Position numbers and translations under genes: made by a program. From positions 622-64,621 of the forward strand of contig JBFLWW010000006.1 in the NCBI GenBank assembly GCA_040757475.1: DNA of 64,000 nt. The letters are read 5' to 3'. This document shows, one piece after another, positions 20,930-38,461 of this stretch (position 1 is the first letter of the stretch; every line of letters starts with the position of its first letter). A model generated the notes under the pieces. That model saw only the letters and a program-made list of their open reading frames with translations, did no database searches and was not told the DNA's origin. This DNA comes from Nitrospirota bacterium. Lineage in GTDB: Bacteria > Nitrospirota > Thermodesulfovibrionia > Thermodesulfovibrionales > SM23-35.

Positions 20930-21118
20930 TTCCGCCTCCTGTCTTTGTATTCACAGGAGTCAATTTTCTACTTTTTCGTATATATTTCTTATTTGAGGCA
21001 ACGATACACTTTCATATAGATTTTTGATGAGGCAATTCGAATCCACGCGTTTTCTTTCCATATTTGATATAATTGCACCTGAGATATTCTTTAATTAAAA
21101 GAAGGGGGGCTTATAACC

Positions 21119-22171
21119 ATGAATCGAGTATTATTTTTATTCACCATAATATTTTTATATGTCATACCTGTATATGGTGCTGAAAACAATATTGGCAAGA
21201 TTACAGAACTCAGCGGAAATGTCTCGTATAGAGAAAAAAAGGATGTAGCTTACCAGACTGCTAAGAAGGGTGTTGAGTTAAAGAAAGGCTACTGGGTTAA
21301 GACAGGCTCTGATGGATGGGTGGTATTGACATTAGCTGACCAGAGTAAACTCACATCGGCGAATAACACAGAACTCGAGATTACAGAATTTATCATCGGA
21401 AAAAACAAGAAGGCTGGGGTATTTAACATGGCTCAGGGGAAACTCAGAGCATCTGTGGTAAGACTTGCAGGTGAAAAGGTGGATTATAAAGTAAAAAGTC
21501 CAACAGCAGTTGCAGGAATAAAGGGCACTGAGTTTATGATGATGACACAGGGACTTGCCAATGTATTTTTTGGAAATGAAGGAGTAGCTGAAATATCAGG
21601 AGATACCACTACTTCAAAACTATTGAGTGTTGATACAATGGTTCAGAATACAAGGGGATATACGCCAACAGACCCTGTTAAGGTTGAGCCTGACACCCCG
21701 CTATCCACCGCAAAAAAGAACTTCGAGGAGATAACAGCAGCAAAACCTCCAGAAGATTGGGAGCTTTCAAACAATTTACCACACATAATTGCGAGATGGA
21801 ATATAAACTACGGCCACTATCTGGCAGATGCAGGAAGATATGAGGAAGCACTCTATGTATTTCAAATAGCCCTTGACCTTACAAACTTACCAGAGATCAG
21901 GAGTGATGCGAGGCTGGAGAGGGGTACTGTTTACGCAAGGTTTTTGCGTAATCCAGAGGCAGCGCTGGCAGAATACCTGCTCGTGCTCGAGGAGTATCCC
22001 CATGTGCCCCAAAGGGAGACAGCCCTTTATTTTACAGGCATGACCCTTTATGAACTCAGCTTCAAGGAGCAGGCAAAAGAGAAGCTGGTGCGGTACAAAA
22101 AAGAATATCCTGAAGGCAAACATATAAGTAATGTAGAGACAATACTGAGGGTTATTGAGAAAGTAGATTGA
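21119..22171 (+). CDS. Exported FecR-domain protein with C-terminal TPR region
   Basis: Signal peptide ...VIPVYGAENN. The FecR-like core reads GNVSYREKK...KGYWVKTGSDGWVVLTLADQSKLTSANNTELEI. The C-terminus has TPR-like helices. Confidence 0.65.
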   Translation: MNRVLFLFTIIFLYVIPVYGAENNIGKITELSGNVSYREKKDVAYQTAKKGVELKKGYWVKTGSDGWVVLTLADQSKLTSANNTELEITEFIIGKNKKAGVFNMAQGKLRASVVRLAGEKVDYKVKSPTAVAGIKGTEFMMMTQGLANVFFGNEGVAEISGDTTTSKLLSVDTMVQNTRGYTPTDPVKVEPDTPLSTAKKNFEEITAAKPPEDWELSNNLPHIIARWNINYGHYLADAGRYEEALYVFQIALDLTNLPEIRSDARLERGTVYARFLRNPEAALAEYLLVLEEYPHVPQRETALYFTGMTLYELSFKEQAKEKLVRYKKEYPEGKHISNVETILRVIEKVD

Positions 22172-22223
22172 TAAATTTAGAAAAAGAACCGTTGAGCTCT
22201 TGTTAAGGCAGGGAAGGCGAGCG

Positions 22224-24506
22224 ATGAAAGAGAATATCCTTAAATTCTTGATAATTGCAATTTTATTATTTAGCAGCGGCTGTGCAGGTCTCTTCAAGGA
22301 TATCGAAGTCAGTTCACTCATGCAGAAAAAGCGTCACCACGAGGTAATCCAGATCCTACAGCAGGATATCGACCGTAAGGAGGAAATATCGGCATTTCAG
22401 TTATATCTGCTGAGTGGAGCCTACTATGAGATCAGGGACTATGAAAAAATGCTCTCCACGGTAAATTTGATGGAAAAAAAGATCTCTCAGGGAGACACTG
22501 GCTATTTCGGAGCCAACCTGTCAATATTCCCGGGAATTCTTCGCGGCTATGCCTATCTTGATCAGGGGGAATACGACAAAGCAATCAAGACGGCATCCGC
22601 GGCTTATGCTCTCCTGAACCGGGTTGGCGAGTCATCTAATATTTTTTATCGTTCACAGCTTATTGATATCGCAGGTATTCTGGGTGTAGCCTATGCCCAT
22701 CTGAACCAGAATGCAGAGGCGGATCGCTGGATAAAAGTCCTGCATAGCATAGATATTAGCGACACCAATTTGGGTTCTGAAAAATTCATTGCCATTGCTA
22801 GGATTCACGTCGCAAAGAAACAGTATCGCCAGGCACTGTCAGCAGTCCAGAACCCGGAAGCAAAAGTCTCCGGCCTTGTCACAGTTTTCTATGACCAGAC
22901 CTTTGAGGAACTTCCAAAATTCTTCATTTTGACTAAGTGTCTGTATGAAACGGGAAAAATCCATGAGGCCAGAGAGAATTATGACCAGCTCCTGAAACAT
23001 CCCCAAATTAAACAGATAGGAGGACTCCACTGGCCAATCCTTTTAGATAGAGGCAGAATCGCCTGCATGGAAGGCAAGGAAGCAATAGCTGAACAGCTTC
23101 TCAGAGAGGCTGTTGATGTGATTGAGAAGCAACGATCCTCCATAAGGTCGGAGGCTGGGAGGATCGGTTATGTAGGGAATAAACAGGCTATTTATCAGGA
23201 ACTGGTTGCTCTGCTGATTTCCGGAGGCCGTCCGGCAGAAGCCTTTGAATATGTGGAGCGCTCAAAGTCCAGGGCGCTTGTGGATTTACTGGCTTCAAAT
23301 AAAGAGTTTGGTGTTTCAAAAGATAAAGAACAGGTTGTCTCCATGCTAAAAGAGCTTGAAACAATTGAGTCGGAAGGCAAGGTGCTTGATGTCAGCAACC
23401 TCGCCCCTAAAAAGGCAAATCAAAGAAATATCAGAAGCGTTCAAATTAAAGAGAGAATAAAGACCTTAGCGCCTGAACTGACATCTCTTGTTACTGTTTC
23501 CATACCGCCTCCAACAGAAATCCAGTCATATATCGCTGGCGATGAGACACTCATTGAATATTATTATCATGAAGAAGACTTCTATGTGTTTGTGTTAACT
23601 CAAAATATATTAAAAGCTGTAAAACTGGACGGTAAAGATATTTTGAAAGATATAGAGCAACTCAGAAAATTACTGCAAGACCCAAAATCAACTCATTATC
23701 CTGGGCCCTCGCAAAGACTATATCAGAGGCTTATAAAGCCCGTTGAACATCTCATTAATACTCAAAGGCTTATCATTGTGCCTCATGGAATCCTTCACTA
23801 TCTGCCATTTAATGCCTTAAACAGCGGGAGTAATTATCTTATAGACAAATATAGTGTCAGTTATCTGCCGAGTGCAAGCATTATGAAATTTTTAAAACAA
23901 AAGAAAACACAAAAGACATACGGCGCACTGATTTTTGGCAATCCCGACCTCGGTAACCCCAAATATGACCTTAAACATGCCGAAGAAGAGGCAGTTGCAA
24001 TATCAAAGGAACTCTCACAGGCAAAGGTGCTTTTAAAGAAAGAAGCGACAGAGACAGACTTTAAGAAATCTGCAAATCAGTTCAACTACATCCATTTTGC
24101 AACTCACGGCATATTTGAATCCGACTCGCCTTTGAACTCGGGACTCTTTCTTTCAAAGGATGCTGAAAACGATGGATTATTGAGCGTAAACGAACTATAT
24201 TCCCTTAGTCTGAACGCAGACCTTGTTACATTGAGCGCCTGTGAAACAGCACTTGGTAAAATCAATCCAGGAGATGATGTTGTAGGACTCACAAGGGGAT
24301 TTCTCTACGCAGGGGTTAATTCAATTATAGCGAGTCTCTGGAGGGTAGATGATATGGCAACTTCGTATTTAATGACAGGATTTTATTCCAATCTGAAAAA
24401 GACAAATAAGCGTGATGCATTGAGGGAAGCGCAGTTGACCATAAAAAAGCAGTATGAACATCCATACTACTGGGCTGCCTTCCAGTTGACAGGTATGCCT
24501 GATTAA
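22224..24506 (+). CDS. TPR-CHAT domain lipoprotein (caspase-fold protease family)
   Basis: ATG at 22224 gives MKENILKFLIIAILLFSSGC (lipobox). TPR-like N-terminal half. CHAT catalytic motifs YIHFATHG (His) and VTLSACETALG (Cys). Confidence 0.75.
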   Translation: MKENILKFLIIAILLFSSGCAGLFKDIEVSSLMQKKRHHEVIQILQQDIDRKEEISAFQLYLLSGAYYEIRDYEKMLSTVNLMEKKISQGDTGYFGANLSIFPGILRGYAYLDQGEYDKAIKTASAAYALLNRVGESSNIFYRSQLIDIAGILGVAYAHLNQNAEADRWIKVLHSIDISDTNLGSEKFIAIARIHVAKKQYRQALSAVQNPEAKVSGLVTVFYDQTFEELPKFFILTKCLYETGKIHEARENYDQLLKHPQIKQIGGLHWPILLDRGRIACMEGKEAIAEQLLREAVDVIEKQRSSIRSEAGRIGYVGNKQAIYQELVALLISGGRPAEAFEYVERSKSRALVDLLASNKEFGVSKDKEQVVSMLKELETIESEGKVLDVSNLAPKKANQRNIRSVQIKERIKTLAPELTSLVTVSIPPPTEIQSYIAGDETLIEYYYHEEDFYVFVLTQNILKAVKLDGKDILKDIEQLRKLLQDPKSTHYPGPSQRLYQRLIKPVEHLINTQRLIIVPHGILHYLPFNALNSGSNYLIDKYSVSYLPSASIMKFLKQKKTQKTYGALIFGNPDLGNPKYDLKHAEEEAVAISKELSQAKVLLKKEATETDFKKSANQFNYIHFATHGIFESDSPLNSGLFLSKDAENDGLLSVNELYSLSLNADLVTLSACETALGKINPGDDVVGLTRGFLYAGVNSIIASLWRVDDMATSYLMTGFYSNLKKTNKRDALREAQLTIKKQYEHPYYWAAFQLTGMPD

Positions 24507-24529
24507 TTAATGCGAAAAAGGAGGAAGTT

Positions 24530-25381
24530 GTGATAAAAATATTCATTTCATTATTTATAAGCATGTTATTAGCATCAACCCTTTATGCCTCTCAATCCAC
24601 AATCACAGAATCAGAAGGCTATGCCTGCATGGGTGAAGACAAGTCAAGAAAGCAGACTGAGCAGGCTGCCGTGGCTGATGCAAAGAGGAAGGCGATAGAG
24701 TCAGTATCGTCATATATCACAAGCGAAACACAGGTGAAGGACTTTGAACTCCAGAAGGACCTGGTATCCGCCTATGCTAATGCTACAGTGAAAGTCATTC
24801 AAGAACTTGAAAAGGGATGGTATAAAGATACAACAATGGGAGACTGTTATAAGGTAAAGATAAAGGCAGAGGTTATTCCCGATGAAAAGGCAATGGTGAA
24901 AGTCGCAAAATCCAAACAGGTCGCAGATGACCCATCCGCTCCGCTTAATATTCAGGCGTGGACAGATAAAAAGGAATACAGAAGCGGAGAGAAGATAAAG
25001 ATTTATATCAAGGGCAATAAGCCTTTTTATGCCCGTGTGCTTTATAAAGATGTCAAGGGTGAATTGCTCCAATTGCTTCCGAATCCTTACAGAAGCGAAA
25101 ATTATTTTAATGGTGGAGTGATATACGAAATACCCTCTGGAAATGACCGGTTTGAATTAGAGGTCAGTCCACCATTTGGTGAAGAAAATGTAATCGTTTA
25201 TGCAAGTACAACACCTCTTGGTGATATAAACCTTAAAACTCAAGGCAGTGTTTATCAGGTAAGAACACGGTCAGCAGATATTGGTGACAAAATAAGAGGT
25301 GTTAAGATTATAGAGAAAGGAAAAGGCAGTTCAGCCTCTGAGTTTTTTGAAGAGGAGGTAGTTATAAGAACTGAAAAATGA
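24530..25381 (+). CDS. Exported LPP20/FlgT_N-like module plus DUF4384 domain protein
   Basis: GTG start after AAAGGAGGAAG, then a signal peptide. The N-module EGYACMGEDKSRKQTEQAAVADAKRKAIESVSSYI... has five paralogs in this window. The C-terminal part is DUF4384-like (EKIKIYIKGNKPFYARVLYKDVKGELLQLLPN). Confidence 0.6.
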   Translation: MIKIFISLFISMLLASTLYASQSTITESEGYACMGEDKSRKQTEQAAVADAKRKAIESVSSYITSETQVKDFELQKDLVSAYANATVKVIQELEKGWYKDTTMGDCYKVKIKAEVIPDEKAMVKVAKSKQVADDPSAPLNIQAWTDKKEYRSGEKIKIYIKGNKPFYARVLYKDVKGELLQLLPNPYRSENYFNGGVIYEIPSGNDRFELEVSPPFGEENVIVYASTTPLGDINLKTQGSVYQVRTRSADIGDKIRGVKIIEKGKGSSASEFFEEEVVIRTEK

Positions 25382-25448
25382 TTTACGAAGAGATATTTGA
25401 AGAATTTGGAGTAAAAGAGGGTCAAGGTCATTTTAATATAAAATATAC

Positions 25449-27608
25449 ATGAAACCCCGTAGGTTTATCATATTTGCATCTATTGGCATTGTCTCAGCCA
25501 TCCTCACAATCCTTATTTACACCCAGAAGATAGATTTCTTTAATGCCATTGACCTTAAGCTTAAAGATGTCAGGTTCAGGACAAGGGGAGATGTAGAGCC
25601 TGACAAGAGGGTCGTTATTGTTGCCATAGACGAAAAAAGCATAAATGAGCTTGGTAGATGGCCATGGGATAGAAGGGTTATCGCCAAACTGGTGGAGAGT
25701 CTTAAATTATATGGTGCCAGGACCATTGCTTTTGATATTGTTTTCTCTGAAACCTCAAATATTGCATCTGACAAAGTTCTTTCAGATAGCATTAAAAAAA
25801 GTGGAAATGTAGTATCAGGCTACTTTTTCAGGGGAGAAGGTCCGCCTATGGCGGAAGGGGTGGAGCCTCCAGCCGAATCCCTTGTGTTGTTAGAACAATC
25901 GAGGATAAAGGTCCTGAGAACCAAAGGTAATGTAAACAATATTCCTGTTATCGGTTATCCAACGGTTGAGTTAAACATCCCTATAATTGCAGAGGCTGCC
26001 AGTAGTGCTGGTTTTTTCAATATCATTCATGACAATGATGGAATCCTGAGGTCATCCAATCTTTTGATAATCCACAACGGATATGTTTATCCATCACTTG
26101 CCCTTTCTGCCCTCCGGAACTACCTCGGAAGGGAAATAATCCTTGAAATTGCCCCCTATGGTGTTGATAATCTCCTGATAGGGAATTACCGTATACCATC
26201 TGATGAATCAGGAAGGCTCACCCTTAATTACTATGGCAAGGGGGGAACCTTTAAAAACATCCCTGCCACTGATGTAATCCACAAGCGACTGAAACCCGAC
26301 AGCCTGAAGGATTCCCTTGTCTTTATCGGTCCCACTGAGGTTGGACTTTCTGATTTCCGTGCAACCCCTGTTGACCCTGTGCTTCCAGGGGTTGAAGCAC
26401 ATGCAACAGTCGCATCCATTGTGCTACAGAACAGATTCCTCATAAGGGATGGACGTGTAATAGCACTGGAAATTTTCTTTATTATATTCTTCCCACTCAT
26501 ATTAACCACGCTTTTGAGTTTTATACGCAGGACAATAATAGCGCTCTTGTTCTTTCTAATAACAATAGGGTTTTATCTCCTTGCAAACTATATCTCTTTT
26601 AAGGATTATCTCTTAAATACCTCTGTGCTATTTCCACTTGTTTCCATAACAATATCGTATCTGTGTTCAGAGGCATATAGGAATCTTATAGAAGAAAAAC
26701 AGAGCAGGTTTCTCAAAAAGGCATTCACAAGCTATGTCTCCCCAGACCTTGTTAGTGAGATAATAAAAAGCCCTGATACACTCAAGCTTGGAGGTGAGAA
26801 AAGGGAAATAACGGTTTTATTTTCAGATATAAGGGGCTTCACCTCTGTTTCTGAAAGTCTTACACCAGAGTCCCTTGTTTTACTCCTGAACCAGTATCTG
26901 GGACCAATGACCAATATAGTCCTAAAACACAGGGGAACCCTCGACAAATACATCGGGGATGCCATAATGGCAATATATAATGCACCATTAAAGATTGAAG
27001 ACCACGCAGTGCGTGCCTGTGAAACTGCTGTGGAGATGGTGGATAAACTAAAAGAGATTAATAATACCTTCAGAGAAAAGGACTTCCCAGAAATCGACAT
27101 CGGCATTGGTATGAACACAGGAGATGCAATTATTGGCAATATGGGGACAGATATCAGGTTTGATTATACTGCAATTGGCGACACTGTCAATCTTGCCTCA
27201 AGGCTTGAAGGCTTGAATAAGATTTATGAGACCCACATAATCGTGAGTGAGTTTACAATTAAGCACCTGAAGGACATGGAGACACGGAGACACGGGAATT
27301 CACCGATTCACCGATTCACCGATTCACGTTTCAGGGAGCTCGACCTCATAAAAGTGAAGGGTAAGGATAAGCCGGTTACCATCTATGAGCTTTCCATTAC
27401 TATGGATAAGGCATTAATAAAAAAGTTCGAGGAGGCATTGGGTCTCTACAGGAAACAGTGGTTTAAAGATGCACAGGAGATATTTGCCCATCTTTCTGCT
27501 GAATACGGCGATAAGACTTCAGAAATTTTTGCCGAACGGTGTGCTGAGTTTATGGATAATCCGCCCGGTGCTGACTGGGATGGGGTTTATATAGCAAAGG
27601 CAAAGTGA
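25449..27608 (+). CDS. CHASE2 sensor domain - class III adenylate/guanylate cyclase
   Basis: N-terminal TM, then a CHASE2-like region (VVIVAIDEKSINELGRWPWDR) and a TM cluster. The cyclase core reads EKREITVLFSDIRGFTSVSE...KYIGDAIMAIYNAP...TAIGDTVNLASRLE. Confidence 0.8.
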   Translation: MKPRRFIIFASIGIVSAILTILIYTQKIDFFNAIDLKLKDVRFRTRGDVEPDKRVVIVAIDEKSINELGRWPWDRRVIAKLVESLKLYGARTIAFDIVFSETSNIASDKVLSDSIKKSGNVVSGYFFRGEGPPMAEGVEPPAESLVLLEQSRIKVLRTKGNVNNIPVIGYPTVELNIPIIAEAASSAGFFNIIHDNDGILRSSNLLIIHNGYVYPSLALSALRNYLGREIILEIAPYGVDNLLIGNYRIPSDESGRLTLNYYGKGGTFKNIPATDVIHKRLKPDSLKDSLVFIGPTEVGLSDFRATPVDPVLPGVEAHATVASIVLQNRFLIRDGRVIALEIFFIIFFPLILTTLLSFIRRTIIALLFFLITIGFYLLANYISFKDYLLNTSVLFPLVSITISYLCSEAYRNLIEEKQSRFLKKAFTSYVSPDLVSEIIKSPDTLKLGGEKREITVLFSDIRGFTSVSESLTPESLVLLLNQYLGPMTNIVLKHRGTLDKYIGDAIMAIYNAPLKIEDHAVRACETAVEMVDKLKEINNTFREKDFPEIDIGIGMNTGDAIIGNMGTDIRFDYTAIGDTVNLASRLEGLNKIYETHIIVSEFTIKHLKDMETRRHGNSPIHRFTDSRFRELDLIKVKGKDKPVTIYELSITMDKALIKKFEEALGLYRKQWFKDAQEIFAHLSAEYGDKTSEIFAERCAEFMDNPPGADWDGVYIAKAK
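27275..27330. repeat. Octamer array inside the cyclase gene
   Basis: catggaga cacggaga cacgggaa ttcaccga ttcaccga ttcaccga ttcacgtt. Confidence 0.8.
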
Positions 27609-27871: not shown

Positions 27872-29092
27872 TCAGATATACTTATCGGTCATCTTAAGCC
27901 TTAATGCCATTTCTTTTAACAGGGAAAGGACAATCCTTGGGTTTTCCCTGAGTATGGTTTCGAAATTATCCTGAGAAATGATTACAAGTTGTGTATCAGG
28001 TTCTGCTACAGTGGCCGTAGCCGTCCTTGGGGCGTTCAGAAGCATTGACATCTCTCCGAAATATTCGCCCTGTTTCATGACTCTTAGAATCTGCTCATTC
28101 TTGCTCAGGGTGACCGAGCCAGAAAGGATGAAGAACATATCCCTTCCCCTGTCTCCCTCTCTAAAAATTATTTCCTCCAAATCATAGCTTTTCCCAAACT
28201 TTTTCATAAGCTTTCTATGCACCTTATCTGATATGGATGTATTAAAGAAAACCTTCTTTAATAACAGGGTGTCCTTCCTTCTTACATTTGCCATAACCTC
28301 TGTCCCAAAAAGAATCACGGAGAAGGAATAATAAACCCACACAAAGAGCACAAAGATTGCCTTTAAAGAACCAAAGGCAAAGCCATAGTGGGGGTTGAAT
28401 GTAAGGAAAAGGGAAAATATAGGTCTCATAATGGACCAAAGGATGGCAATAATCAAGGAGCCAGCTAAAAGATAGCTAAATCTCAATTTTACAGGGGAAA
28501 AGGCAAGATGAAAAAAGGACACAAATACTGTTGTTATAACCAACGGGACAACAATGTTAATAATATCAAGAAAAAGGGGTAGTTTTTTAAAAAATGTGCT
28601 AATAATCATGGAATAAAAGATTTCACTTGCCACAAGAAATACAAATAGAATCAGTATGACCAGCACTGCCAGTGCATCAAGAAGTTTTGCTTTGAGAAAG
28701 GGTATTTCCTCATCTGCCTTGAATATCCTGAAAAATGCACTCCTGAGGGCACCCGCAAGGGGCGTAATTAACCAGAAAAGGGCAATAATACTTAAAACTC
28801 CCCATACACCTTTATGCTGTGAGAGGGAATAAACTTCTTTAGTAATTATCCCGCTAAATTTGGGAAATAGCTGTGAGGTAAGGCTCTCAATTCCTTTAGT
28901 GGCAGCCTCCGATGATATTATATAATTGCCAAGGAGATATACTACAAGCAGTAGTAACGGAATAAGGGCAAAGAAGCCATAGTAGGCAAGGGCTGCTAAT
29001 TTTTCAAAGTTATTGTTCTTTTGAAATGACTTTAAAGACTCTCTGAGTATAAGGAGAGAATCACCTATTTTTTCTCTAAATCCTTTAAGCAT
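27872..29092 (-). CDS. YihY/BrkB-family membrane protein fused to a C-terminal cyclic-nucleotide-binding domain
   Basis: The polytopic N-terminal ~280 aa are YihY-like. The C-terminus FREGDRGRDMFFILSGSV...GEYFGEMSMLLNAPRTATATV is a canonical cNMP-binding motif. Confidence 0.7.
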   Translation of the reverse strand: MLKGFREKIGDSLLILRESLKSFQKNNNFEKLAALAYYGFFALIPLLLLVVYLLGNYIISSEAATKGIESLTSQLFPKFSGIITKEVYSLSQHKGVWGVLSIIALFWLITPLAGALRSAFFRIFKADEEIPFLKAKLLDALAVLVILILFVFLVASEIFYSMIISTFFKKLPLFLDIINIVVPLVITTVFVSFFHLAFSPVKLRFSYLLAGSLIIAILWSIMRPIFSLFLTFNPHYGFAFGSLKAIFVLFVWVYYSFSVILFGTEVMANVRRKDTLLLKKVFFNTSISDKVHRKLMKKFGKSYDLEEIIFREGDRGRDMFFILSGSVTLSKNEQILRVMKQGEYFGEMSMLLNAPRTATATVAEPDTQLVIISQDNFETILRENPRIVLSLLKEMALRLKMTDKYI

Positions 29093-30042
29093 TTCTCTAT
29101 CATTATAGTAGCATCCTTAATACCCTGTTTATCCTCTGCCCCCTCACTTACTGAAAGCGCCCTTTTAAAATATTTCAACGCATCTTCCAGCTCACCCTGC
29201 TTAAAAAGAACATTTCCAATCCCTATTAAATCTATAGCTACCTTCCTGCTTAATCCCAATGACTTATCTGTGGCGAGGGCATCTCTATATGATTTCATTG
29301 CCTCTTCATATTCACCCCTCATTGCCTTTGCCCCTGCAAGGAGCCTGAGGGAATTTGCTATTTCCTCTCTGTCCTCGCAGGCTTTGTTTAACATAAGTCC
29401 TTTGTTGCCAAAGGTTATGGCAGAAGAGGGATCTCCTCTTAAAAGGGCAATCCTACCCTTGAGGTTATAAATCTTTCCTTCCATTGAGCATCTATCATTT
29501 TGACAGAAAGATAATGCTCTATCTACCCATTGAGATGCATACTCATAATTAACATCATCCAGATAAAGCATTGCCTTTATGAAGGCAGCCTCAGATAATA
29601 GTGAATGGTGAATGGTGAATGGTGAATAGTTAAAAAGCTCGTCAATGTGTTTATGTGCTTTATCGCCCTCTCCGAGTTTACGATAGACAATCGCCATATT
29701 AATAAGGTTTATTGCAATACCATCGCTATTTTCAATGGAACGATTAATCATTAGGGCTTCACTATAGAGGTGCAAGGCCTTTTTGTAATCGCCCTTTTTA
29801 AAGGCGGACCCGGCCTTTTGATTAAATTCAATAGCCCTAAGATGTGTATCTGATAATTTCGGAGGCATATGTCCACAGGCAACAGTAAAGAGTAAACAAT
29901 AGACAGTAAGCAGTAAAAGACTGAAGTTGAGAGGTTGAGAAGTTGAGAAATTGAGAAGTCCTATCTTCTTATTCTTATCTTCACACCTTCTTATCTTCTC
30001 ATTTTCTGACTTCTGATTACTTGCTATCATAGCTGTCCACAT
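29065..30042 (-). CDS. TPR-repeat lipoprotein
   Basis: Lipobox LLFTVAC, then several TPR-like repeats (AL.LY.EAL...). The N-terminal ~45 aa are encoded by micro-repeat arrays. Overlaps both neighbouring genes. Confidence 0.65.
   Translation of the reverse strand: MWTAMIASNQKSENEKIRRCEDKNKKIGLLNFSTSQPLNFSLLLLTVYCLLFTVACGHMPPKLSDTHLRAIEFNQKAGSAFKKGDYKKALHLYSEALMINRSIENSDGIAINLINMAIVYRKLGEGDKAHKHIDELFNYSPFTIHHSLLSEAAFIKAMLYLDDVNYEYASQWVDRALSFCQNDRCSMEGKIYNLKGRIALLRGDPSSAITFGNKGLMLNKACEDREEIANSLRLLAGAKAMRGEYEEAMKSYRDALATDKSLGLSRKVAIDLIGIGNVLFKQGELEDALKYFKRALSVSEGAEDKQGIKDATIMIEKCLKDLEKK
29594..29628. repeat. Heptamer array inside the TPR lipoprotein gene
   Basis: gataata gtgaatg gtgaatg gtgaatg gtgaata. 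Confidence 0.85.
29883..30021. repeat. Three consecutive micro-repeat arrays (7-, 8- and 7-nt units)
   Basis: cagtaaa gagtaaa caataga cagtaag cagtaaa; then gttgagag gttgagaa gttgagaa attgagaa; then ttcttat tcttatc ttcacac cttctta tcttctc attttct gacttct gattact. Confidence 0.8.
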
Positions 30043-30979
30043 TTAATGTCTTTTCCTCAGACGCTTTTATATATGAGCGTATGGGCCATATCTTCTTCAC
30101 TGAATCAACAACCTCCTTTGTGCTATCAGCTACATCGCCTGCTTTTTCAACAATGGATGGAACCTGTGGCGCAGACCTCTCTACTGCTTTTTTGATCTCT
30201 TCTGTCGTCGTTTCGATATTCTTCAGACTCTTATTTGCTATTTCCACCATATGAGGAATGTCTCTGTCAATTTTCTTTATTACATTGTCTACAGTGGTAA
30301 TTGTCTGTTTTGTTGAATCGAGGAGAAAATCTATTTTTGTAACAGTCACGTTCATATTCTTCTCTGCATCCTGAAGCAGGGTGTCAAGATGCTGTCTTGT
30401 AGTGGATACATCTTCTGATAGCTCTCTGAGATTCTTCAGGGTCTGTTTAATGTCACCTTGTGGGTCATTGACATAATGGATTATCTGTTTTATATCTGTA
30501 AGGACAGGTTTAATTTCATCTTTTAACTCTTCAGCCATCTCGCTGAGCCCCTTTGCCCTTTCAAAGGCAATTATACCATCTTCTGGAACCTGCCTTGCAT
30601 CCGCTGAGCCAGGTGTTATCTCTATAATACTATCGCCTATCACTCCTTCCTTTATCAGTCTTGCCTTTGAGTCTGTCTTTATCCATTTCATGTATTTAGT
30701 ATTTATGGATAACTCTACCTTTACCCTTGCGATGTCATCCAGTGATAACCCCTCAACCTTGCCTATCTTAAATCCACTGAGTTTTATTGCCATGCCCTCG
30801 TTTATACCCTGCCCACTATCAGCTATAAAATATATCCTCGTTTTAGGGGTAAATACATCATGTTGTATTCCTATAAAGGCAATCACCGTAAAAACGCCGA
30901 TAATTGCTATGATGATAAATAGCCCTATCTTCTTTTCAATACCTATAAATCTTTGATCCGTCTCTTCCAATATCCTCAT
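30017..30979 (-). CDS. mlaD: MlaD/MCE-domain protein with a long C-terminal helical region
   Basis: N-terminal TM followed by an MCE-like core (GMAIKLSGFKIGKVEGLSL). Sits in an operon with mlaE-like and mlaF-like genes. Confidence 0.7.
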   Translation of the reverse strand: MRILEETDQRFIGIEKKIGLFIIIAIIGVFTVIAFIGIQHDVFTPKTRIYFIADSGQGINEGMAIKLSGFKIGKVEGLSLDDIARVKVELSINTKYMKWIKTDSKARLIKEGVIGDSIIEITPGSADARQVPEDGIIAFERAKGLSEMAEELKDEIKPVLTDIKQIIHYVNDPQGDIKQTLKNLRELSEDVSTTRQHLDTLLQDAEKNMNVTVTKIDFLLDSTKQTITTVDNVIKKIDRDIPHMVEIANKSLKNIETTTEEIKKAVERSAPQVPSIVEKAGDVADSTKEVVDSVKKIWPIRSYIKASEEKTLNVDSYDSK

Positions 30980-31001
30980 AAATAAACCCCCATCCCCTAA
31001 C

Positions 31002-31649
31002 TTAATTACTCAATCTTAGTATCTGATCTGCCTTTACACTGTCTATGGATAGTGCATTTGAGCTTATATAGATAGATGTCCTACCCGGCTTTTCTAAATG
31101 AAATTTTTCAGTCAATTTTGTTAACCTCTCTAACATCTCAGGATTTAACCCTTCAAATATAGAGTCATATATTATCAAATCAGGCTCTATGAGCATTGCC
31201 CTTACAAGCCCAATCAATCTTTTTTCATAAACTGGTAATGGTCCGGGGAGCCTCCCCATTAATTCCTTGAGATAAGAGGGATCCATCCCCATCTCTTTAA
31301 ATATTTCAATAACCCTTTCCTCAACATCCCTTGGTCTCTTTCCCATGTGATGCCATACAGAAAGTATAATGTTCTCCCAGACCTTCAGGTTGCTGATTAT
31401 CCCACCATACTCCAGAACCACACCAATTCTCTTAAGGACTTTAATATACTCCTTTTCAGGGATAGAATATATGTCCTTGCCCAATAGAAAAACCCTGCCA
31501 CTTATTGGCCTCCTGATCCCCAAAATCGTATTCAATAATATTGTCTTTTCATCGTCTGAGCTTGTAATAATCTTACATGCAGAACCTCCTTTTATCTCAA
31601 AGGACACTGAACTAAAATACCTCGTAGTAATATTTTCAAGCCGTATCAT
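31002..31649 (-). CDS. MlaF-like ABC nucleotide-binding protein with degenerate catalytic motifs
   Basis: ABC-ATPase layout, but Walker A reads TSSDDEKT, the signature reads LPVYE, Walker B reads LIIYDS, and the H-loop His is absent (IYISSN). Confidence 0.6.
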   Translation of the reverse strand: MIRLENITTRYFSSVSFEIKGGSACKIITSSDDEKTILLNTILGIRRPISGRVFLLGKDIYSIPEKEYIKVLKRIGVVLEYGGIISNLKVWENIILSVWHHMGKRPRDVEERVIEIFKEMGMDPSYLKELMGRLPGPLPVYEKRLIGLVRAMLIEPDLIIYDSIFEGLNPEMLERLTKLTEKFHLEKPGRTSIYISSNALSIDSVKADQILRLSN

Positions 31650-32425
31650 ATAAATGATATAACAGTAATCATACCATCAAATATAAAAACTAAAAACAGG
31701 CTCTGCATAACTGCCCTCGTCGCTGCCTGTGGTATTTCCGTTATAGACGACTGCACACTAAATCCCTGATAGCAGGAGACCGTTGAAATCAGTAATCCAA
31801 ATACAAGGCTTTTAAACAGAGAGACCACTACCTCAAAAAGGCTCAGGGCTGAAAATATACCCTTGAGATGTTGAAAAAACGGGATATCTATGAATACAGA
31901 TGTGAATGCCAGTCCGCCGGCAATGGCCATTATCTGAAAATAAAATGTGAGTATAAATACAGATACCGTGATTCCCACTATTCTTGGAACAATAAGGTAA
32001 TCTATCGGGTCAATACCCATGATTCTAAGGCTATCTACCTCTCTATTTACCTTCATCGAACCGAGCTCTGCCGCTATGGCAGTGCCACTCCTCGCTATGA
32101 CTATTATGGCTGCAAATAAAGGGCCGAGCTCCCTTACCACCGTCCATATCAGTATCCTTCCTGTAAGCACAGCATTTAAACCAACAATATTCGCTACCTG
32201 GGTAATAATAACGATTCCTATGAGTGTTCCGATTATGGCTATTTTGCTCAATGCCTCTATGCCTGTAAAATATATTTGTCTGTAGAGAACTGAACGAATT
32301 GGGGCTATGTGGAGCACCGGAATATTTTTTATGGAATAGCATAATAATTCATAGTAGCCCCTTGAATATCTAATGGCATCAATGATATTCCTTCCAATTT
32401 TCTGGATATTGATAATCTGTATCAT
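31646..32425 (-). CDS. mlaE: MlaE-family ABC permease
   Basis: 259-aa polytopic protein with ...GPLFAAIIVIARSGTAIAAELGSMKVNREVDSLRIMGIDP..., as in the MlaE/YrbE family. Confidence 0.8.
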   Translation of the reverse strand: MIQIINIQKIGRNIIDAIRYSRGYYELLCYSIKNIPVLHIAPIRSVLYRQIYFTGIEALSKIAIIGTLIGIVIITQVANIVGLNAVLTGRILIWTVVRELGPLFAAIIVIARSGTAIAAELGSMKVNREVDSLRIMGIDPIDYLIVPRIVGITVSVFILTFYFQIMAIAGGLAFTSVFIDIPFFQHLKGIFSALSLFEVVVSLFKSLVFGLLISTVSCYQGFSVQSSITEIPQAATRAVMQSLFLVFIFDGMITVISFI

Positions 32426-32576: not shown

Positions 32577-33278
32577 ATGGGAAAAGATACCAACAGGGCG
32601 TTGATAGAAGGATTCCTTAAAGAACTCCCTATTTTTAAACACCTATCAGAGAAGCACTTAAAACAGCTCTCGGGGGATTTCATTGTTTGTCAGGTAAAGA
32701 AGGGAGAGACCATATTTTATCAGTCAGACGATAGTACCGACCTTTACATAGTTCTTGAGGGTGCAGTGAGGGCATCCCTTTTGAACCAAGATGGACAGGA
32801 ACTAATACTTGCAACCTTTCACAAGGGTGACTTCTTTGGTGAGATGAGCCTCCTTGATGGCAAGCCGAGGTCTGCCACGATGATAGTGGTGGAGGATTCA
32901 ACACTCGGTATACTAAAACGGGATAGATTTCTCCTCGCAGCCAAAAATGACCCGACGATTACCATTGACCTGCTCTCGGCCCTAGTGCGGAGACTGAGGA
33001 TGACAGATGAGATGGTGGAGTCCCTCGCTTTCCTCGATGTGAGCCAGAGGCTCGTAAAACTGCTATTACAGATTGCAAAGACAGAAGGCGAAAAGGATAA
33101 AAACGGGTTTTTCAGGATAAAAAAGCTTACCCATAGAGAACTGGCAGCACACACAGGGGCATCAAGAGAGGCGATATCCAAGGCACTAAAGGTTCTCGCC
33201 TTTAGAGATATTATAAAAGTGGAAGAGGGTTGCTTTTTGATTTCTTCAGATGCAGAGAGGATAAAGGGGCTTATGTGA
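32577..33278 (+). CDS. Crp/Fnr-family transcription regulator (cNMP-binding domain plus HTH)
   Basis: GDFFGEMSLLDGKPRSATMIV is the cNMP domain. HRELAAHTGASREAISKALKVL is the HTH. The track ORF starts at TTG 32565; the ATG is at 32577. Confidence 0.8.
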   Translation: MGKDTNRALIEGFLKELPIFKHLSEKHLKQLSGDFIVCQVKKGETIFYQSDDSTDLYIVLEGAVRASLLNQDGQELILATFHKGDFFGEMSLLDGKPRSATMIVVEDSTLGILKRDRFLLAAKNDPTITIDLLSALVRRLRMTDEMVESLAFLDVSQRLVKLLLQIAKTEGEKDKNGFFRIKKLTHRELAAHTGASREAISKALKVLAFRDIIKVEEGCFLISSDAERIKGLM

Positions 33279-35309: not shown

Positions 35310-35319
35310 GGAAGGAAGC

Positions 35320-36363: not shown

Positions 36364-36393
36364 GTATAAAGGTATCAGAGATGAGGATAAAGG

Positions 36394-37152
36394 TTGAAGG
36401 ATGAAATTATGGAAATAATAAAGCATCAGCAGCATGATATAACCAATATCCTTAAAAAACTGAGAGATTATCTGCTTCATGACGCTGTAGGAAATAAGAT
36501 TGCTAAAATAGTCCTATTCGGCAGCCATGCAAAAGGATATGCAACACCAAATTCTGATATGGACATTATGATTTTTACTGCTGATGGCAAAGATACGGAG
36601 AAGAGACTCCTTGATAAGATTTATGATTTTATGATTGAACATAATACACCTTTAGAGATAGTTGTTTCTGATGTTAGTGACCTCTATCTATCTAAAGACT
36701 ACTTTACATATAATATTATCCATTATGGGGTGGAGGTATATTCCATGGAGAAGTCAGAATTAAAAAAGCACATGATAAGAGACCTGCATAATCTCGCAGA
36801 GGAATATCTTGAATCAGCAGAGGATGTTTTAGAGAAAGGTCGTATGCGACTTGCCATAGATGCTGGTTATAACTCTGCTGAACTTTCTGCAAAGGCACTT
36901 ATACTTCTAAAAGAAGATGACCTACCTGGAAGTCACGGGGGTATAGTAAGCTTGTTTGGGCAGTTATTTATAAAGACAGAGGAGATAAATAAAGATGTGG
37001 GCAGGACATTAAATATGGCGCTGGAATTAAGAAATAAGGCAAGATATAAACCAAATGTCAGTTTTAGTAAAGATGATACAGATTTAGTATTAAATCTTGC
37101 CAGGACTTTCTTGAAAATCGTATCTAATAAAATTGAGGATAAAACTGGGTAA
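36394..37152 (+). CDS. Nucleotidyltransferase (MNT)-HEPN fusion protein, cytoplasmic
   Basis: KIVLFGSHAKGYATPNSDMDIMIF is a pol-beta-type NTase motif. The helical C-terminal half is HEPN-like (..ALELRNKARY..). No signal peptide. Confidence 0.6.
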   Translation: MKDEIMEIIKHQQHDITNILKKLRDYLLHDAVGNKIAKIVLFGSHAKGYATPNSDMDIMIFTADGKDTEKRLLDKIYDFMIEHNTPLEIVVSDVSDLYLSKDYFTYNIIHYGVEVYSMEKSELKKHMIRDLHNLAEEYLESAEDVLEKGRMRLAIDAGYNSAELSAKALILLKEDDLPGSHGGIVSLFGQLFIKTEEINKDVGRTLNMALELRNKARYKPNVSFSKDDTDLVLNLARTFLKIVSNKIEDKTG

Positions 37153-37218
37153 AGGGGCCTTAAAACTATTATAAACCTTTTCAGTCGCAACGACTGAGAA
37201 TTATAGGGGGTTAGAAAG

Positions 37219-38412: not shown

Positions 38413-38461
38413 TGTTTTTGAGAATTTTTGGTTTTTAATCCAAACGTGAAAATTACCTTTA

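What the first reader, a model, noticed from the sequence alone, without database searches (positions are those of the whole stretch)
21119..27608. Exported FecR, TPR-CHAT lipoprotein, DUF4384 protein and CHASE2 adenylate cyclase in one operon-like block, with local cNMP receivers
Four co-directional genes are separated by short gaps.

The FecR-domain protein, the CHAT protease (intact His and Cys motifs, lipobox) and the DUF4384 protein are all predicted to be outside the cytoplasm. That is where the CHASE2 sensor domain of the cyclase would sit.

Two cNMP-binding proteins lie within 6 kb. One is a YihY-family membrane fusion (27872-29092). The other is a Crp-family regulator (32577-33278), placed immediately upstream of the OMP gene and the lipoprotein super-cluster.

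Inference: a periplasmic event involving the CHAT/FecR pair may be sensed via CHASE2 and converted to cAMP/cGMP. The nucleotide may then drive Crp-dependent expression and the Mla-like/YihY membrane machinery. From memory, FecR/CHAT/CHASE2 adjacency recurs in other genomes; this is not verified here. Its function is not established.
Basis: partly seen in the sequence, partly recalled or inferred. Interest (0 to 1): 0.7.

Follow-up and report, generated by a model that had tools for sequence, protein, structure and literature searches.

The report
Envelope-sensing cAMP module with periplasmic protease
A Nitrospirota bacterium pairs a membrane adenylate cyclase that has an outward-facing CHASE2 sensor with a secreted FecR-like partner, a pairing seen in many bacteria. 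In this lineage a secreted caspase-like protease and a DUF4384 protein sit between the two genes, which suggests, but does not prove, that cleavage of proteins outside the cytoplasm feeds into cAMP signalling.

Summary
Four co-directional genes (21119-27608) encode an exported FecR-domain/TPR protein, a TPR-CHAT lipoprotein with an intact His/Cys dyad, an exported FlgT_N-like+DUF4384 protein, and a CHASE2 class III cyclase. The cyclase keeps all six catalytic residues, with the Lys/Thr pair typical of adenylate cyclases.

The widely conserved core is only the FecR + CHASE2-cyclase pair:
- 33 of 80 species-level cyclase loci from many phyla carry a FecR-domain ORF.
- All 7 Nitrospirota relatives do.
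- Three papers already report this pairing.

CHAT is the optional part:
- It is absent from all 80 distant cyclase loci.
- Its orthologues stand alone in Syntrophales and Thermodesulfobacteriota.
- In close Nitrospirota relatives the same slot holds other exported caspase-like proteases (WD40-C14, TPR-CHAT), always together with the DUF4384 orthologue.

The cAMP-receiver and Mla-like neighbours are conserved within Thermodesulfovibrionales. In Thermodesulfovibrio sp. TK110, orthologues of ten window genes scattered over 21-54 kb form one tight string.

No E. coli-type CRP sites were found.

Verdict: a lineage-specific variant of a known but mechanistically unsolved sensor module. The proteolytic-input model is plausible but inferred. 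Interest is moderate.

The parts
21065..21109 (+). Promoter-like extended -10 (TGATATAAT, 21065-21073) and RBS (AGAAGGGGGG, 21100-21109) ahead of the first gene
   Evidence: Read directly from the sequence. The consensus scan did not list it because the -35 is poor.
21119..22171 (+). Exported FecR-domain protein with a C-terminal TPR-like region. It has a signal peptide but no anti-sigma domain and no TM anchor. The conserved Gly136-Thr137 corresponds to the FecR self-cleavage site.
   Evidence: Pfam; single N-terminal hydrophobic segment. GT is present in every aligned CHASE2-linked FecR protein whose sequence covers that position, and it aligns to E. coli FecR G181-T182. Cleavage at that site in E. 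coli is reported in PMC12036975.
22224..24506 (+). TPR-CHAT lipoprotein, a clan CD caspase-like protease, with lipobox FSSGC and catalytic H628/C673. An alternative TTG start lies at 22200.
   Evidence: Pfam CHAT 255 bits; lipobox survey; dyad conservation; gene caller start at the ATG.
24530..25381 (+). Exported two-domain protein: FlgT_N-like N-domain (about residues 24-116) plus DUF4384 (149-229). Cys33 and Cys106 are invariant.
   Evidence: Pfam; paralogues in the window with FlgT_N hits; family alignment; AF2 N-domain pLDDT 65-91.
25449..27608 (+). Receptor adenylate cyclase: TM, periplasmic CHASE2, three TMs, class IIIb catalytic domain (D460, K500, D504, T574, N581, R585), and a conserved 75-aa C-terminal tail.
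27872..29092 (-). BrkB/YihY-family membrane protein fused to a cNMP-binding domain (YFGEMSMLLNAPRTA); a candidate local cAMP receiver.
   Evidence: The same neighbour is seen in L091 and L092.
29065..32425 (-). Four-gene Mla-like set: TPR lipoprotein (29065-30042), MlaD/MCE (30017-30979), divergent ABC ATPase (31002-31649), MlaE permease (31646-32425).
   Evidence: Pfam. Co-located with the cyclase and/or CHAT in L089-L094.
32577..33278 (+). Crp-family regulator with an intact cNMP phosphate-binding cassette (FFGEMSLLDGKPRSA) and HTH_Crp_2.
   Evidence: Orthologue next to the Mla-like set in L090, L091, L093 and L094.
34131..44348 (+). Envelope lipoprotein cluster: FlgT_N-like, CsgG/LpoB-like (three copies), a TPR+SLH protein, with an inserted NTase-HEPN gene.
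   Evidence: Pfam. Partly conserved after Crp in L090.
46844..54035 (+). Second half of the same system: GNA1162-like+NosD+TPR lipoprotein (46844-49204), ankyrin+caspase C14 lipoprotein (49276-50574), FlgT_N+DUF4384 paralogue (50629-51444), FlgT_N-like (51466-52317), transglutaminase-core protein (52365-54035).
   Evidence: Pfam. The GNA1162 and transglutaminase genes are 65% and 62% identical to genes lying in one string with FecR and the cyclase in Thermodesulfovibrio sp. TK110.

Best explanation
**Core.** The core is a two-part envelope sensor found in many phyla. A secreted FecR-domain protein works with the periplasmic CHASE2 domain of a membrane class IIIb adenylate cyclase. The cAMP made in the cytoplasm is read by local receivers, here a Crp-family regulator and a BrkB/YihY membrane protein with a cNMP-binding domain.

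**Wider unit.** In Thermodesulfovibrionales this sensor belongs to a larger envelope gene set: an Mla-like MCE transporter with a TPR lipoprotein, CsgG/FlgT_N/GNA1162-type lipoproteins, and a transglutaminase-core protein.

**Lineage-specific add-ons.** The two middle genes are add-ons on the same side of the membrane as the sensor.
- The FlgT_N+DUF4384 protein is the conserved third partner.
- The TPR-CHAT lipoprotein is one of several interchangeable exported caspase-like proteases found beside it.

**Most likely mechanism (inferred).** An envelope or extracellular protein cue activates the protease. The protease cleaves the DUF4384 protein and/or the FecR-domain protein, which keeps the Gly-Thr self-cleavage motif used in FecR regulated proteolysis. 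That changes what CHASE2 sees and so changes cAMP output.

**Shown:** gene content, export signals, catalytic residues, and patterns of conservation.
**Inferred:** FecR-CHASE2 contact, proteolysis as the input, and the Crp regulon.
For: **The cyclase is competent and adenine-type.**
- D460/D504, K500/T574 and N581/R585 are present. They align to Spirulina CyaC, P. aeruginosa CyaB, and the engineered adenylate-cyclase variant of Synechocystis Cya2, which carries Lys where wild-type Cya2 carries Glu.

**FecR-CHASE2 coupling.**
- 33/80 species-level cyclase loci carry a FecR-domain ORF. Thirteen are immediately upstream on the same strand, several with overlapping or nearly abutting genes.
- 7/7 Nitrospirota relatives carry it, including a remnant cut by an IS element in L091.
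- Published cases exist in Burkholderia, S. meliloti and Campylobacterota.

**Protease and DUF4384.**
- All four loci whose cyclase is closest to the window's (window; L091, cyclase identity not measured; L094 70%; L087 69%) have FecR + DUF4384 + a clan CD protease + the cyclase in one co-directional block. The proteases are not orthologous to one another.
- The window has a second adjacent caspase + DUF4384 pair at 49276-51444.
- All these proteases have signal peptides or lipoboxes.
- DUF4384 is reported as often fused to protease domains. It also forms the C-terminal domain of some Csx30 proteins, and Csx30 is the substrate of the TPR-CHAT protease Csx29.
- A CHAT-like + CHASE2 fusion exists in Nostoc punctiforme pNPUN01. 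Orthocaspase-CHASE2 fusions are reported.

**FecR cleavage motif.**
- The GT motif aligns to the E. coli FecR G181-T182 cleavage site.

**Receivers and the wider unit.**
- Both cNMP domains have an intact phosphate-binding cassette.
- In Thermodesulfovibrio sp. TK110, a divergent Crp gene is followed by GNA1162/NosD, DUF4384, transglutaminase, MlaE, ABC, MlaD, TPR, FecR and the cyclase in one tight string. All ten have orthologues in the window.

**Precedent for a protein signal.**
- The only studied CHASE2 cyclases, in S. meliloti, respond to a protein signal through an outer-membrane protein.
Against: - The protease is dispensable for the core. L088 has FecR overlapping the cyclase with nothing between; L089 has only a ~900-bp gap holding one unannotated 57-aa minus-strand ORF.
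- TK110 has no CHAT in its string.
- CHAT, C14 and DUF4384 are found in 0/80 distant cyclase loci.
- CHAT-lipoprotein orthologues stand alone in L002-L005.
- In L090 the 81% CHAT orthologue sits by the Mla-like set, with the cyclase more than 9 kb away.
- In the Nostoc fusion the CHAT domain has no signal peptide, so the topology differs.
- No CRP-type sites were found in the proposed promoters.
- No protein-protein contact, substrate or cAMP measurement exists.
- Models of CHASE2 and DUF4384 were too poor to use.
Confidence: 0.55

Rival explanations
1. Neighbours, not partners. FecR and the CHASE2 cyclase form the sensor on their own. The CHAT lipoprotein and the DUF4384 protein belong to the adjacent envelope lipoprotein/protease machinery (CsgG/FlgT_N/GNA1162/transglutaminase cluster). 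They would be structural or maturation factors, or Crp-regulated outputs, and landed between the sensor genes through local rearrangement without feeding signal into CHASE2.
For: - CHAT orthologues stand alone in other phyla.
- No CHAT, C14 or DUF4384 in 80 distant cyclase loci.
- L088 and L089 lack both within the flanks searched.
- In L090 CHAT keeps the Mla/Crp/FlgT_N neighbourhood but not the cyclase.
- In TK110 the DUF4384 orthologue sits between GNA1162/NosD and the transglutaminase, five genes from FecR.
- The DUF4384 N-domain is paralogous to lipoproteins of the downstream cluster.
- Gene order in this region is visibly shuffled between relatives.
Against: - Four loci place a clan CD protease and DUF4384 inside the FecR...cyclase block using non-orthologous proteases. 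That is hard to explain by drift alone.
- CHAT-CHASE2 and caspase-CHASE2 fusions exist elsewhere.
- On 6.5-kb and 8.2-kb metagenome contigs, DUF4384 and cyclase homologues appear to co-occur.
Confidence: 0.3
2. An anti-phage or abortive-infection system of the Pycsar type. A cyclase makes a cyclic nucleotide that activates a membrane effector carrying a cNMP-binding domain (BrkB-cNMP), with a caspase-like protease as a second effector.
For: - The cyclase domain hits PADLOC PycC models (best E 1.7e-27).
- The cNMP domains hit the nucleotide-binding part of Pycsar effector models.
- The cyclase and a cNMP-TM protein are adjacent.
- Toxin-antitoxin-type genes are scattered in the region (NTase-HEPN at 36394-37152; HicAB in L094).
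Against: - The hits reflect generic class III cyclase and cNMP-domain homology.
- The substrate residues are the purine type, Lys/Thr.
- The cyclase is a membrane receptor with an extracytoplasmic sensor, conserved at 50-100% identity with stable neighbours across a lineage, rather than patchy.
- BrkB-cNMP is convergent to the cyclase, not in the same operon, and it travels with the Mla-like set.
- The protease is exported, not cytosolic.
Confidence: 0.03
3. A classical Fec-type cell-surface signalling system. FecR would act as an anti-sigma factor relaying a TonB-dependent receptor signal to an ECF sigma factor, with the cyclase incidental.
For: FecR domain with a conserved GT self-cleavage motif. 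A TonB-dependent receptor exists in the window at 5681-7498.
Against: - The protein has a cleavable signal peptide and lacks both the cytoplasmic anti-sigma domain and a TM anchor.
- No ECF sigma gene was found among the annotated neighbours.
- The TonB receptor is 14 kb away, directly behind a cobalamin riboswitch.
- The conserved partner across phyla is the CHASE2 protein.
Confidence: 0.02

Closest known systems
Sinorhizobium meliloti CyaD1/CyaD2/CyaK - Clr cascade, with smc02177 (FecR domain) and smc02178 next to cyaD1 and clr
   Same: CHASE2 receptor adenylate cyclases, a FecR-domain exported protein encoded alongside, and a Crp-family cAMP regulator close by. The signal there is a protein (plant uL2) sensed through an outer-membrane protein.
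   Different: No CHAT, caspase or DUF4384 genes are described there. smc02177 is a Clr target and was not needed for signal perception. No Mla-like or BrkB-cNMP neighbours are described. The biology is a plant symbiosis.
Campylobacterota cAMP cluster: CHASE2 cyclase + phosphodiesterase + FecR-domain protein + TPR protein (PMC9239204)
   Same: CHASE2 adenylate cyclase clustered with FecR-domain and TPR proteins. The authors likewise infer one pathway from clustering. In the window, the FecR domain and the TPR-like region are in one polypeptide.
   Different: No phosphodiesterase in the window block. GAF+HD phosphodiesterases are, however, common in the 80 distant loci (20 loci). No protease or DUF4384.
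Burkholderia BiofilmReg operon: response regulator - LysM/FecR protein - CHASE2 histidine kinase - DUF4136 (PMC5192318)
   Same: An exported FecR-domain protein encoded immediately before a CHASE2 membrane sensor.
   Different: The output is a histidine kinase, not a cyclase. The FecR protein carries LysM. No protease.
E. coli FecR / Pseudomonas FoxR anti-sigma factors (cell-surface signalling)
   Same: The same Pfam domain and the same Gly-Thr motif at the aligned position where FecR self-cleaves. Signalling there proceeds by regulated proteolysis of the periplasmic part.
   Different: No anti-sigma domain, no membrane anchor, and no FecI or FecA partners. Self-cleavage is untested here.
Type III-E CRISPR Craspase: TPR-CHAT protease Csx29 and its substrate Csx30
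   Same: A TPR-CHAT protease paired with a separate protein. Some Csx30 proteins carry a DUF4384 C-terminal domain, and Csx30 controls a sigma factor in an anti-sigma-like way.
   Different: Craspase is cytosolic and RNA-guided. Here both proteins are exported, there is no Cas7-11, and no PDB sequence match to the CHAT protein was found.
Cyanobacterial CHAT/orthocaspase-CHASE2 proteins (for example Nostoc punctiforme pNPUN01 NPUN_RS34180, with DUF928 and TPR-CHAT neighbours)
   Same: A caspase-like domain and CHASE2 are linked, there in a single polypeptide.
   Different: The protease domain is N-terminal with no signal peptide, so it is presumably the cytoplasmic output. There is no cyclase and no FecR.

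Membership tests
Class III nucleotidyl cyclase, adenylate cyclase subclass IIIb | Guanylate_cyc (PF00211) domain above the gathering score | tested here: met
   88.3 bits against a cut-off of 21.9, residues 451-643. Best PDB sequence matches are bacterial class III cyclases.
Class III nucleotidyl cyclase, adenylate cyclase subclass IIIb | Two metal-binding Asp plus transition-state Asn and Arg | tested here: met
   D460, D504, N581 and R585 are present and invariant or nearly so in 18 homologues.
Class III nucleotidyl cyclase, adenylate cyclase subclass IIIb | Substrate-specifying Lys plus Asp/Thr (adenine), rather than Glu plus Cys/Gly/Ser (guanine) | tested here: met
   K500 aligns with the Lys of CyaC, and with the Lys that converts guanylate cyclase Cya2 (Glu in 2w01) to an adenylate cyclase in 6fht. 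T574 aligns with the CyaC Thr. Residue roles in CyaC come from established literature, recalled.
Class III nucleotidyl cyclase, adenylate cyclase subclass IIIb | Makes cAMP | not testable with these tools
   Needs an enzyme assay.
CHASE2 receptor proteins | CHASE2 (PF05226) domain flanked by one N-terminal TM and three TMs before a cytoplasmic output | tested here: met
   213 bits. Hydropathy segments at 6-24, 341-359, 362-380 and 388-406.
FecR-CHASE2 sensor pair (Burkholderia, S. meliloti, Campylobacterota) | An exported FecR-domain protein encoded co-directionally beside the CHASE2 protein | tested here: met
   Same block, with two genes in between. Directly adjacent or overlapping in L088, L093, L006 and L008 and in 13/80 distant loci.
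Fec-type anti-sigma factor (cell-surface signalling) | FecR periplasmic domain with a Gly-Thr self-cleavage motif | tested here: met
   PF04773 at 37.7 bits. G136-T137 aligns to E. coli G181-T182. Cleavage itself is untested.
Fec-type anti-sigma factor (cell-surface signalling) | N-terminal cytoplasmic anti-sigma domain and a membrane anchor | tested here: not met
   Only a signal peptide precedes the domain, and there is no other hydrophobic segment.
Fec-type anti-sigma factor (cell-surface signalling) | Adjacent ECF sigma factor and TonB-dependent transducer | tested here: not met
   No such genes among the neighbours scanned from 21 to 54 kb. The only TonB receptor is at 5681-7498, behind a cobalamin riboswitch.
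CHAT proteases (clan CD, PF12770) | CHAT domain with a catalytic His and Cys | tested here: met
   255.5 bits. H628 in ATHG and C673 in SACET are at least 97% conserved in 120 sequences.
CHAT proteases (clan CD, PF12770) | Proteolytic activity and a known substrate | not testable with these tools
   Needs biochemistry.
Type III-E Craspase (Csx29) | Association with Cas7-11/gRAMP and cytosolic location | tested here: not met
   The neighbours are FecR, DUF4384 and the cyclase. The protein is a lipoprotein. No PDB sequence match.
Pycsar anti-phage system | A soluble pyrimidine cyclase in one operon with a cNMP-binding effector | tested here: not met
   PycC model hits cover only the generic catalytic domain. 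The substrate residues are purine-type. The cyclase is a CHASE2 membrane receptor, and BrkB-cNMP is on the opposite strand.
Mla phospholipid transport system | MlaE permease, MlaF ATPase and MlaD MCE protein | tested here: inconclusive
   MlaE 204 bits, MlaD 52 bits, ABC_tran 42.8 bits (above the 25-bit cut-off but a weak match for an MlaF-type ATPase). MlaB, MlaC and MlaA were not looked for, and a TPR lipoprotein is the fourth gene. So it is Mla-like, not shown to be Mla.
Crp/Fnr regulators that bind cAMP | cNMP-binding domain with a phosphate-binding cassette (FGE...R[ST]A) and a Crp-type HTH | tested here: met
   PF00027 84.7 bits and HTH_Crp_2 37.2 bits. FFGEMSLLDGKPRSA. The ligand and DNA site are untested, and no TGTGA-N6-TCACA site was found nearby.

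The most novel reading that the evidence does not exclude
This would be a bacterial 'protease-activated receptor' acting outside the cytoplasm. Exported caspase-like proteases (CHAT, WD40-C14) cleave a dedicated DUF4384 adaptor and/or the self-cleaving FecR-domain co-receptor bound to CHASE2, and that cleavage is the signal that switches adenylate cyclase on or off. It would supply the long-missing input mechanism for CHASE2 sensors. It would also extend the Csx29-Csx30 logic (a CHAT protease cutting a DUF4384-bearing regulator) from CRISPR defence to envelope signalling.
Probability: 0.15. Interest if true: 0.8.

Novelty: new variant of a known kind. Interest (0 to 1): 0.5.

Why it matters
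CHASE2 is a widespread sensor domain found on cyclases, kinases and diguanylate cyclases. In the papers read here its ligand was described as unknown in 2016. The only characterised cyclases, in S. meliloti, respond to a protein signal through an outer-membrane protein by an undescribed mechanism.

This work does three things.
- It puts a number on the FecR partnership: about 40% of diverse cyclase loci.
- It shows that the partner keeps the FecR self-cleavage motif.
- It shows that one lineage repeatedly inserts exported caspase-like proteases plus a very conserved DUF4384 protein into the pair.

Together these give a concrete, testable idea: proteolysis as the input.

Thermodesulfovibrio sp. 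TK110, which by its strain-style name and 1.9-Mb contig may be a cultured isolate, carries the system as one compact string. Exported CHAT and caspase proteases in the periplasm are themselves little studied.

If the add-ons turn out to be mere neighbours, the finding reduces to one more instance of a known gene pair.

Tried and rejected
- **Metagenome scan.** That scan was wasted.
- **CHASE2 structure.** The AlphaFold2 model of the CHASE2 domain, built from 14 sequences, had mean pLDDT 55.9 and was not used for fold search.
- **DUF4384 structure.** The AlphaFold2 model of the DUF4384 protein had mean pLDDT 58.2. Only the N-domain was confident. Foldseek against the PDB gave no match at E <= 0.001, only generic Ig-like sandwiches.
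- **PDB sequence searches.** Searches with the CHAT and FecR proteins gave nothing useful.
- **CRP sites.** The consensus search found 38 matches against 31.8 expected, and none in the proposed promoters.
- **Intergenic footprinting.** Aligning the mlaE-crp intergenic regions of five loci showed conserved blocks but no clear palindrome.
- **Rfam.** No regulatory RNA was found near the block.
- **Contig-length matching.** Matching contig lengths across hit lists was used only as a weak lower bound, because cluster representatives differ.
- **Gene calling.** The first gene-call-based FecR count (30/80) missed cases such as L006. It was replaced by an ORF-based count of 33/80.
- **Rejected readings.** The Pycsar/defence reading and the classical Fec anti-sigma reading were both considered and rejected (see rivals).

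Full report
**1. What is in the sequence**

The four ORFs exist as described and all lie on the + strand.

| Coordinates | Length | Content |
|---|---|---|
| 21119-22171 | 350 aa | FecR domain at residues 60-141, weak C-terminal TPR |
| 22224-24506 (a TTG at 22200 is possible) | 760 aa | TPR + CHAT |
| 24530-25381 | 283 aa | DUF4384 |
| 25449-27608 | 719 aa | CHASE2 + Guanylate_cyc |

- The gaps between the genes are 52 nt (28 nt with the TTG start), 23 nt and 67 nt.
- An extended -10 element (TGATATAAT, 21065-21073) and a strong RBS precede the first gene.
- No convincing + strand terminator separates the genes.
- The same block, with identical neighbours, occurs on an independent public contig.
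- The cyclase and the DUF4384 protein are 100% identical to proteins of a Nitrospirota MAG. The CHAT protein is 85% identical to one from a Thermodesulfovibrionales MAG.
- The flanks carry Dsr-type genes typical of a sulfate reducer.

**2. Location and competence of the parts**

- FecR and DUF4384 each have one N-terminal hydrophobic segment and nothing else.
- The DUF4384 family has two invariant cysteines, C33 and C106, which fits an exported protein.
- The CHAT protein has the lipobox FSSGC. Of 114 full-length homologues, 87 have a PROSITE-type lipobox in the first 60 residues. Most of the others printed begin with a hydrophobic, signal-peptide-like segment without the Cys, and a few have long or truncated N-termini. 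This is therefore largely an exported CHAT family.
- The CHAT dyad, H628 and C673, is at least 97% conserved in 120 sequences.
- The cyclase has the classic CHASE2 topology: TM 6-24, CHASE2 outside, three TMs at 341-406, and the catalytic domain inside.
- Its closest solved relatives by sequence are Synechocystis Cya2, P. aeruginosa CyaB and Spirulina CyaC.
- In those alignments D460 and D504 (metal), N581 and R585 (transition state), and K500 with T574 (substrate) are all present. They are invariant or nearly so in 18 homologues.
- K500 matches the Lys of CyaC. It also matches the Lys that replaces Glu in the adenylate-cyclase version of Cya2 (6fht against 2w01). The enzyme is therefore predicted to be an adenylate cyclase of subclass IIIb.
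- Both nearby cNMP domains carry a canonical phosphate-binding cassette: Crp has FFGEMSLLDGKPRSA and BrkB-cNMP has YFGEMSMLLNAPRTA.

**3. Which adjacencies are conserved**

*(a) Distant relatives.*
- A profile of the cyclase retrieved 80 loci, one per species, with cyclases 31-51% identical to the window's. They come from Desulfuromonadota, Acidobacteriota, Myxococcota, Burkholderiales, Bacteroidota, Spirochaetota and others.
- An iterated FecR profile finds a FecR-domain ORF in 33 of the 80. Thirteen lie immediately upstream on the same strand, often within 15-100 nt.
- Other recurrent neighbours:

| Neighbour | Loci |
|---|---|
| GAF+HD phosphodiesterases | 20 |
| GAF-MshEN-T2SSE ATPases | 13 |
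| cNMP-binding proteins | 10 |
| CHASE2 Ser/Thr kinases | 8 |
| FHA proteins | 6 |

- CHAT, caspase C14 and DUF4384 were found in none of the 80. This used several seeds that do detect one another across families.

*(b) The CHAT lipoprotein.*
- It has hundreds of full-length homologues at 50% identity or more.
- Three that were looked up, in Syntrophales and Thermodesulfobacteriota, stand alone among unrelated genes.

*(c) Nitrospirota relatives.*

| Locus | Identity to window | Arrangement |
|---|---|---|
| L091 | CHAT 85% | FecR remnant cut by an IS element - CHAT - DUF4384 - cyclase, then BrkB-cNMP, TPR, MlaD, ABC, MlaE and Crp, as in the window |
| L094 | cyclase 70% | tRNA-Thr - FecR - HicAB - a non-orthologous TPR-CHAT - DUF4384 - WD40+caspase C14 - cyclase; the Mla-like set and Crp lie 6 kb on |
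| L087 | cyclase 69% | tRNA-Thr - FecR - DUF4384 - WD40+C14 - cyclase - TPR-CHAT - PDZ/WD40/C14 |
| L088 | cyclase 65% | FecR overlapping the cyclase, nothing else |
| L089 | cyclase 60% | FecR - a ~900-bp gap holding one unannotated 57-aa minus-strand ORF - cyclase; the Mla-like set lies 5 kb on |
| L093, Thermodesulfovibrio sp. TK110 | cyclase 53% | Divergent Crp, then GNA1162/NosD/TPR - DUF4384 - transglutaminase core - MlaE - ABC - MlaD - TPR - FecR - cyclase in one tight co-directional string |
| L090 | CHAT 81% | Serpin - WD40 proteins - DUF4919 - CHAT, next to the Mla-like set, Crp, FlgT_N and CsgG; the cyclase is elsewhere on the contig |
| L092 | CHAT 59% | Cyclase, then 8 kb, then WD40-C14 - DUF4919 - CHAT - TPR-CHAT - WD40, then BrkB-cNMP and TPR |

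- All these proteases begin with signal peptides or lipoboxes.
- Every annotated gene of the TK110 string has its best match in the window:
  - FecR 62%.
  - DUF4384 60%, to the copy inside the block.
  - GNA1162/NosD 65%, to 46844-49204.
  - Transglutaminase 62%, to 52365-54035.
  - Crp 60%.
  - MlaE 46%.

*What this means.*
- Window genes from 21 to 54 kb behave as one functional neighbourhood.
- FecR + cyclase is its invariant sensor.
- DUF4384 is the next most faithful member: it is present in 5 of 7 cyclase-anchored loci.
- The caspase-like protease is a slot filled by different families.
- The window holds a second adjacent pair of this kind, ankyrin-C14 at 49276-50574 followed by FlgT_N+DUF4384 at 50629-51444.

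**4. Links from the literature and from other phyla**

- No paper in the library holds CHASE2, CHAT and FecR together.
- FecR with CHASE2 has been noted three times:
  - the Burkholderia BiofilmReg operon;
  - the S. meliloti cyaD1-clr-smc02177 region;
  - a Campylobacterota cyclase-phosphodiesterase-FecR-TPR cluster.
- The S. meliloti CHASE2 cyclases respond to a plant protein through an outer-membrane protein. smc02177 was not needed for perception.
- E. coli FecR self-cleaves between G181 and T182. That GTEF motif aligns with G136-T137 of the window protein. The GT is present in every aligned CHASE2-linked FecR protein whose sequence covers that position.
- DUF4384 is described as often fused to protease domains. 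It is also one of the C-terminal domain types of Csx30, the substrate of the TPR-CHAT protease Csx29.
- Orthocaspase-CHASE2 fusions are reported in cyanobacteria.
- I found a CHAT-like + CHASE2 fusion flanked by TPR-CHAT and DUF928 genes on Nostoc punctiforme pNPUN01. It has no signal peptide.
- Two other plasmid CHAT hits had unrelated contexts.

**5. Interpretation**

The best-supported reading is a FecR/CHASE2 adenylate-cyclase sensor that signals to local cAMP receivers. It is embedded in a Thermodesulfovibrionales envelope gene set, with DUF4384 and an exported caspase-like protease as lineage-specific periplasmic accessories.

A proteolytic input, in which the protease cuts DUF4384 and/or FecR, is favoured by:
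- the repeated non-orthologous filling of the protease slot;
- the Csx29-Csx30 precedent;
- the FecR cleavage motif;
- the protein nature of the only known CHASE2 signal.

It remains inference. The protease is dispensable in some relatives and absent outside this lineage.

The main rival is that the two middle genes belong to the neighbouring lipoprotein machinery and do not feed the sensor.

Two other readings are rejected.
- A Pycsar-like defence reading: the PADLOC hits are generic, the substrate residues are purine-type, the cyclase is a membrane receptor, and the context is conserved across the lineage.
- A classical Fec anti-sigma reading: there is no anti-sigma domain, no sigma factor and no transducer.

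No CRP-type site was found, so the Crp regulon is open.

**6. Verdict**

- This is a new variant of a known but unsolved sensor pair. The triad as recalled is not general.
- Interest is moderate (0.5). It offers a concrete, testable route into how CHASE2 senses its signal, but nothing here is shown functionally.

Noticed in passing
window 46844-54035: A second caspase-like + DUF4384 pair: an ankyrin-C14 lipoprotein at 49276-50574, then FlgT_N+DUF4384 at 50629-51444. It is flanked by a GNA1162-like/NosD/TPR lipoprotein and a transglutaminase-core protein. Orthologues of these two flanking genes sit in one string with FecR and the cyclase in Thermodesulfovibrio sp. TK110.
   Followed up: yes
window 27381-27608 (cyclase residues 644-719): The cyclase has a conserved C-terminal tail of about 75 residues beyond the catalytic domain. 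F672, A675, D688, R697, C698, W710 and K719 are invariant in 18 homologues. It has no Pfam match and its role is unknown.
   Followed up: no
window 36394-37152: A nucleotidyltransferase + HEPN fusion gene (toxin-antitoxin-like; hits PADLOC candidate family PDC-S09) is inserted inside the CsgG/FlgT_N lipoprotein cluster.
   Followed up: partly
window 5344-7498: A cobalamin riboswitch (Rfam, 44.9 bits) lies directly upstream of a TonB-dependent receptor gene. It is unrelated to the FecR-domain protein of the finding.
   Followed up: partly
window 10995-17541: A DsrMKJOP-like respiratory module (Fer4/CCG, multihaem cytochrome c3, Fer4_11, NrfD) and two DsrE-like genes. This fits a sulfate- or sulfur-respiring Thermodesulfovibrionales host.
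   Followed up: no
window 20600-20929 (- strand): Two small hydrophobic ORFs (about 45-54 aa, each with a predicted TM helix) lie divergent from the FecR gene. One was called as a gene on the public contig. Function unknown.
   Followed up: no
window 32505-32526: A direct repeat, TTTGATAGA, occurs twice 13 nt apart in the mlaE-crp divergent intergenic region. Nearby blocks (AAATTYTATCATAATCA and a T-rich stretch ending TTTGATA) are conserved in L090, L091 and L094. These are candidate regulator sites, not palindromic.
   Followed up: partly
L006-L085 (80 distant cyclase loci): CHASE2 cyclases often sit next to a GAF-MshEN-T2SSE (type IV pilus/T2SS-type) ATPase (13 loci) and a GAF+HD_5 phosphodiesterase (20 loci). 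This hints at cAMP control of a secretion or pilus ATPase in other phyla.
   Followed up: partly
L096 (Nostoc punctiforme pNPUN01) 6962-15992: TPR-CHAT, an IS4 transposase, a CHAT-like+CHASE2 fusion protein (805 aa), DUF928 and another TPR-CHAT lie in a row. This is a cyanobacterial CHAT-CHASE2 module with a different topology.
   Followed up: partly
L087 3988-4061 and L094 1379-1452: A tRNA-Thr(CGT) gene lies directly upstream of the FecR gene in two relatives but not in the window. L094 also has a HicAB pair inserted after FecR. In L091 an IS256-type transposase truncates FecR. The locus is a hotspot for insertions.
   Followed up: partly
L090 3069-8972 and L092 5649-8967: A serpin gene and large exported WD40(+caspase) proteins, plus a DUF4919 protein, precede the CHAT lipoprotein orthologue. 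This suggests a periplasmic protease/inhibitor network in these Nitrospirota.
   Followed up: no
L008 8886-13894; L017 and L026 downstream of the cyclase: Outside Nitrospirota, a Deltaproteobacteria MAG has FecR - cyclase - transglutaminase orthologue (E 5.5e-151). Two loci have MlaE-ABC-MlaD directly after the cyclase. The Mla-like and transglutaminase links are therefore not confined to one phylum.
   Followed up: partly
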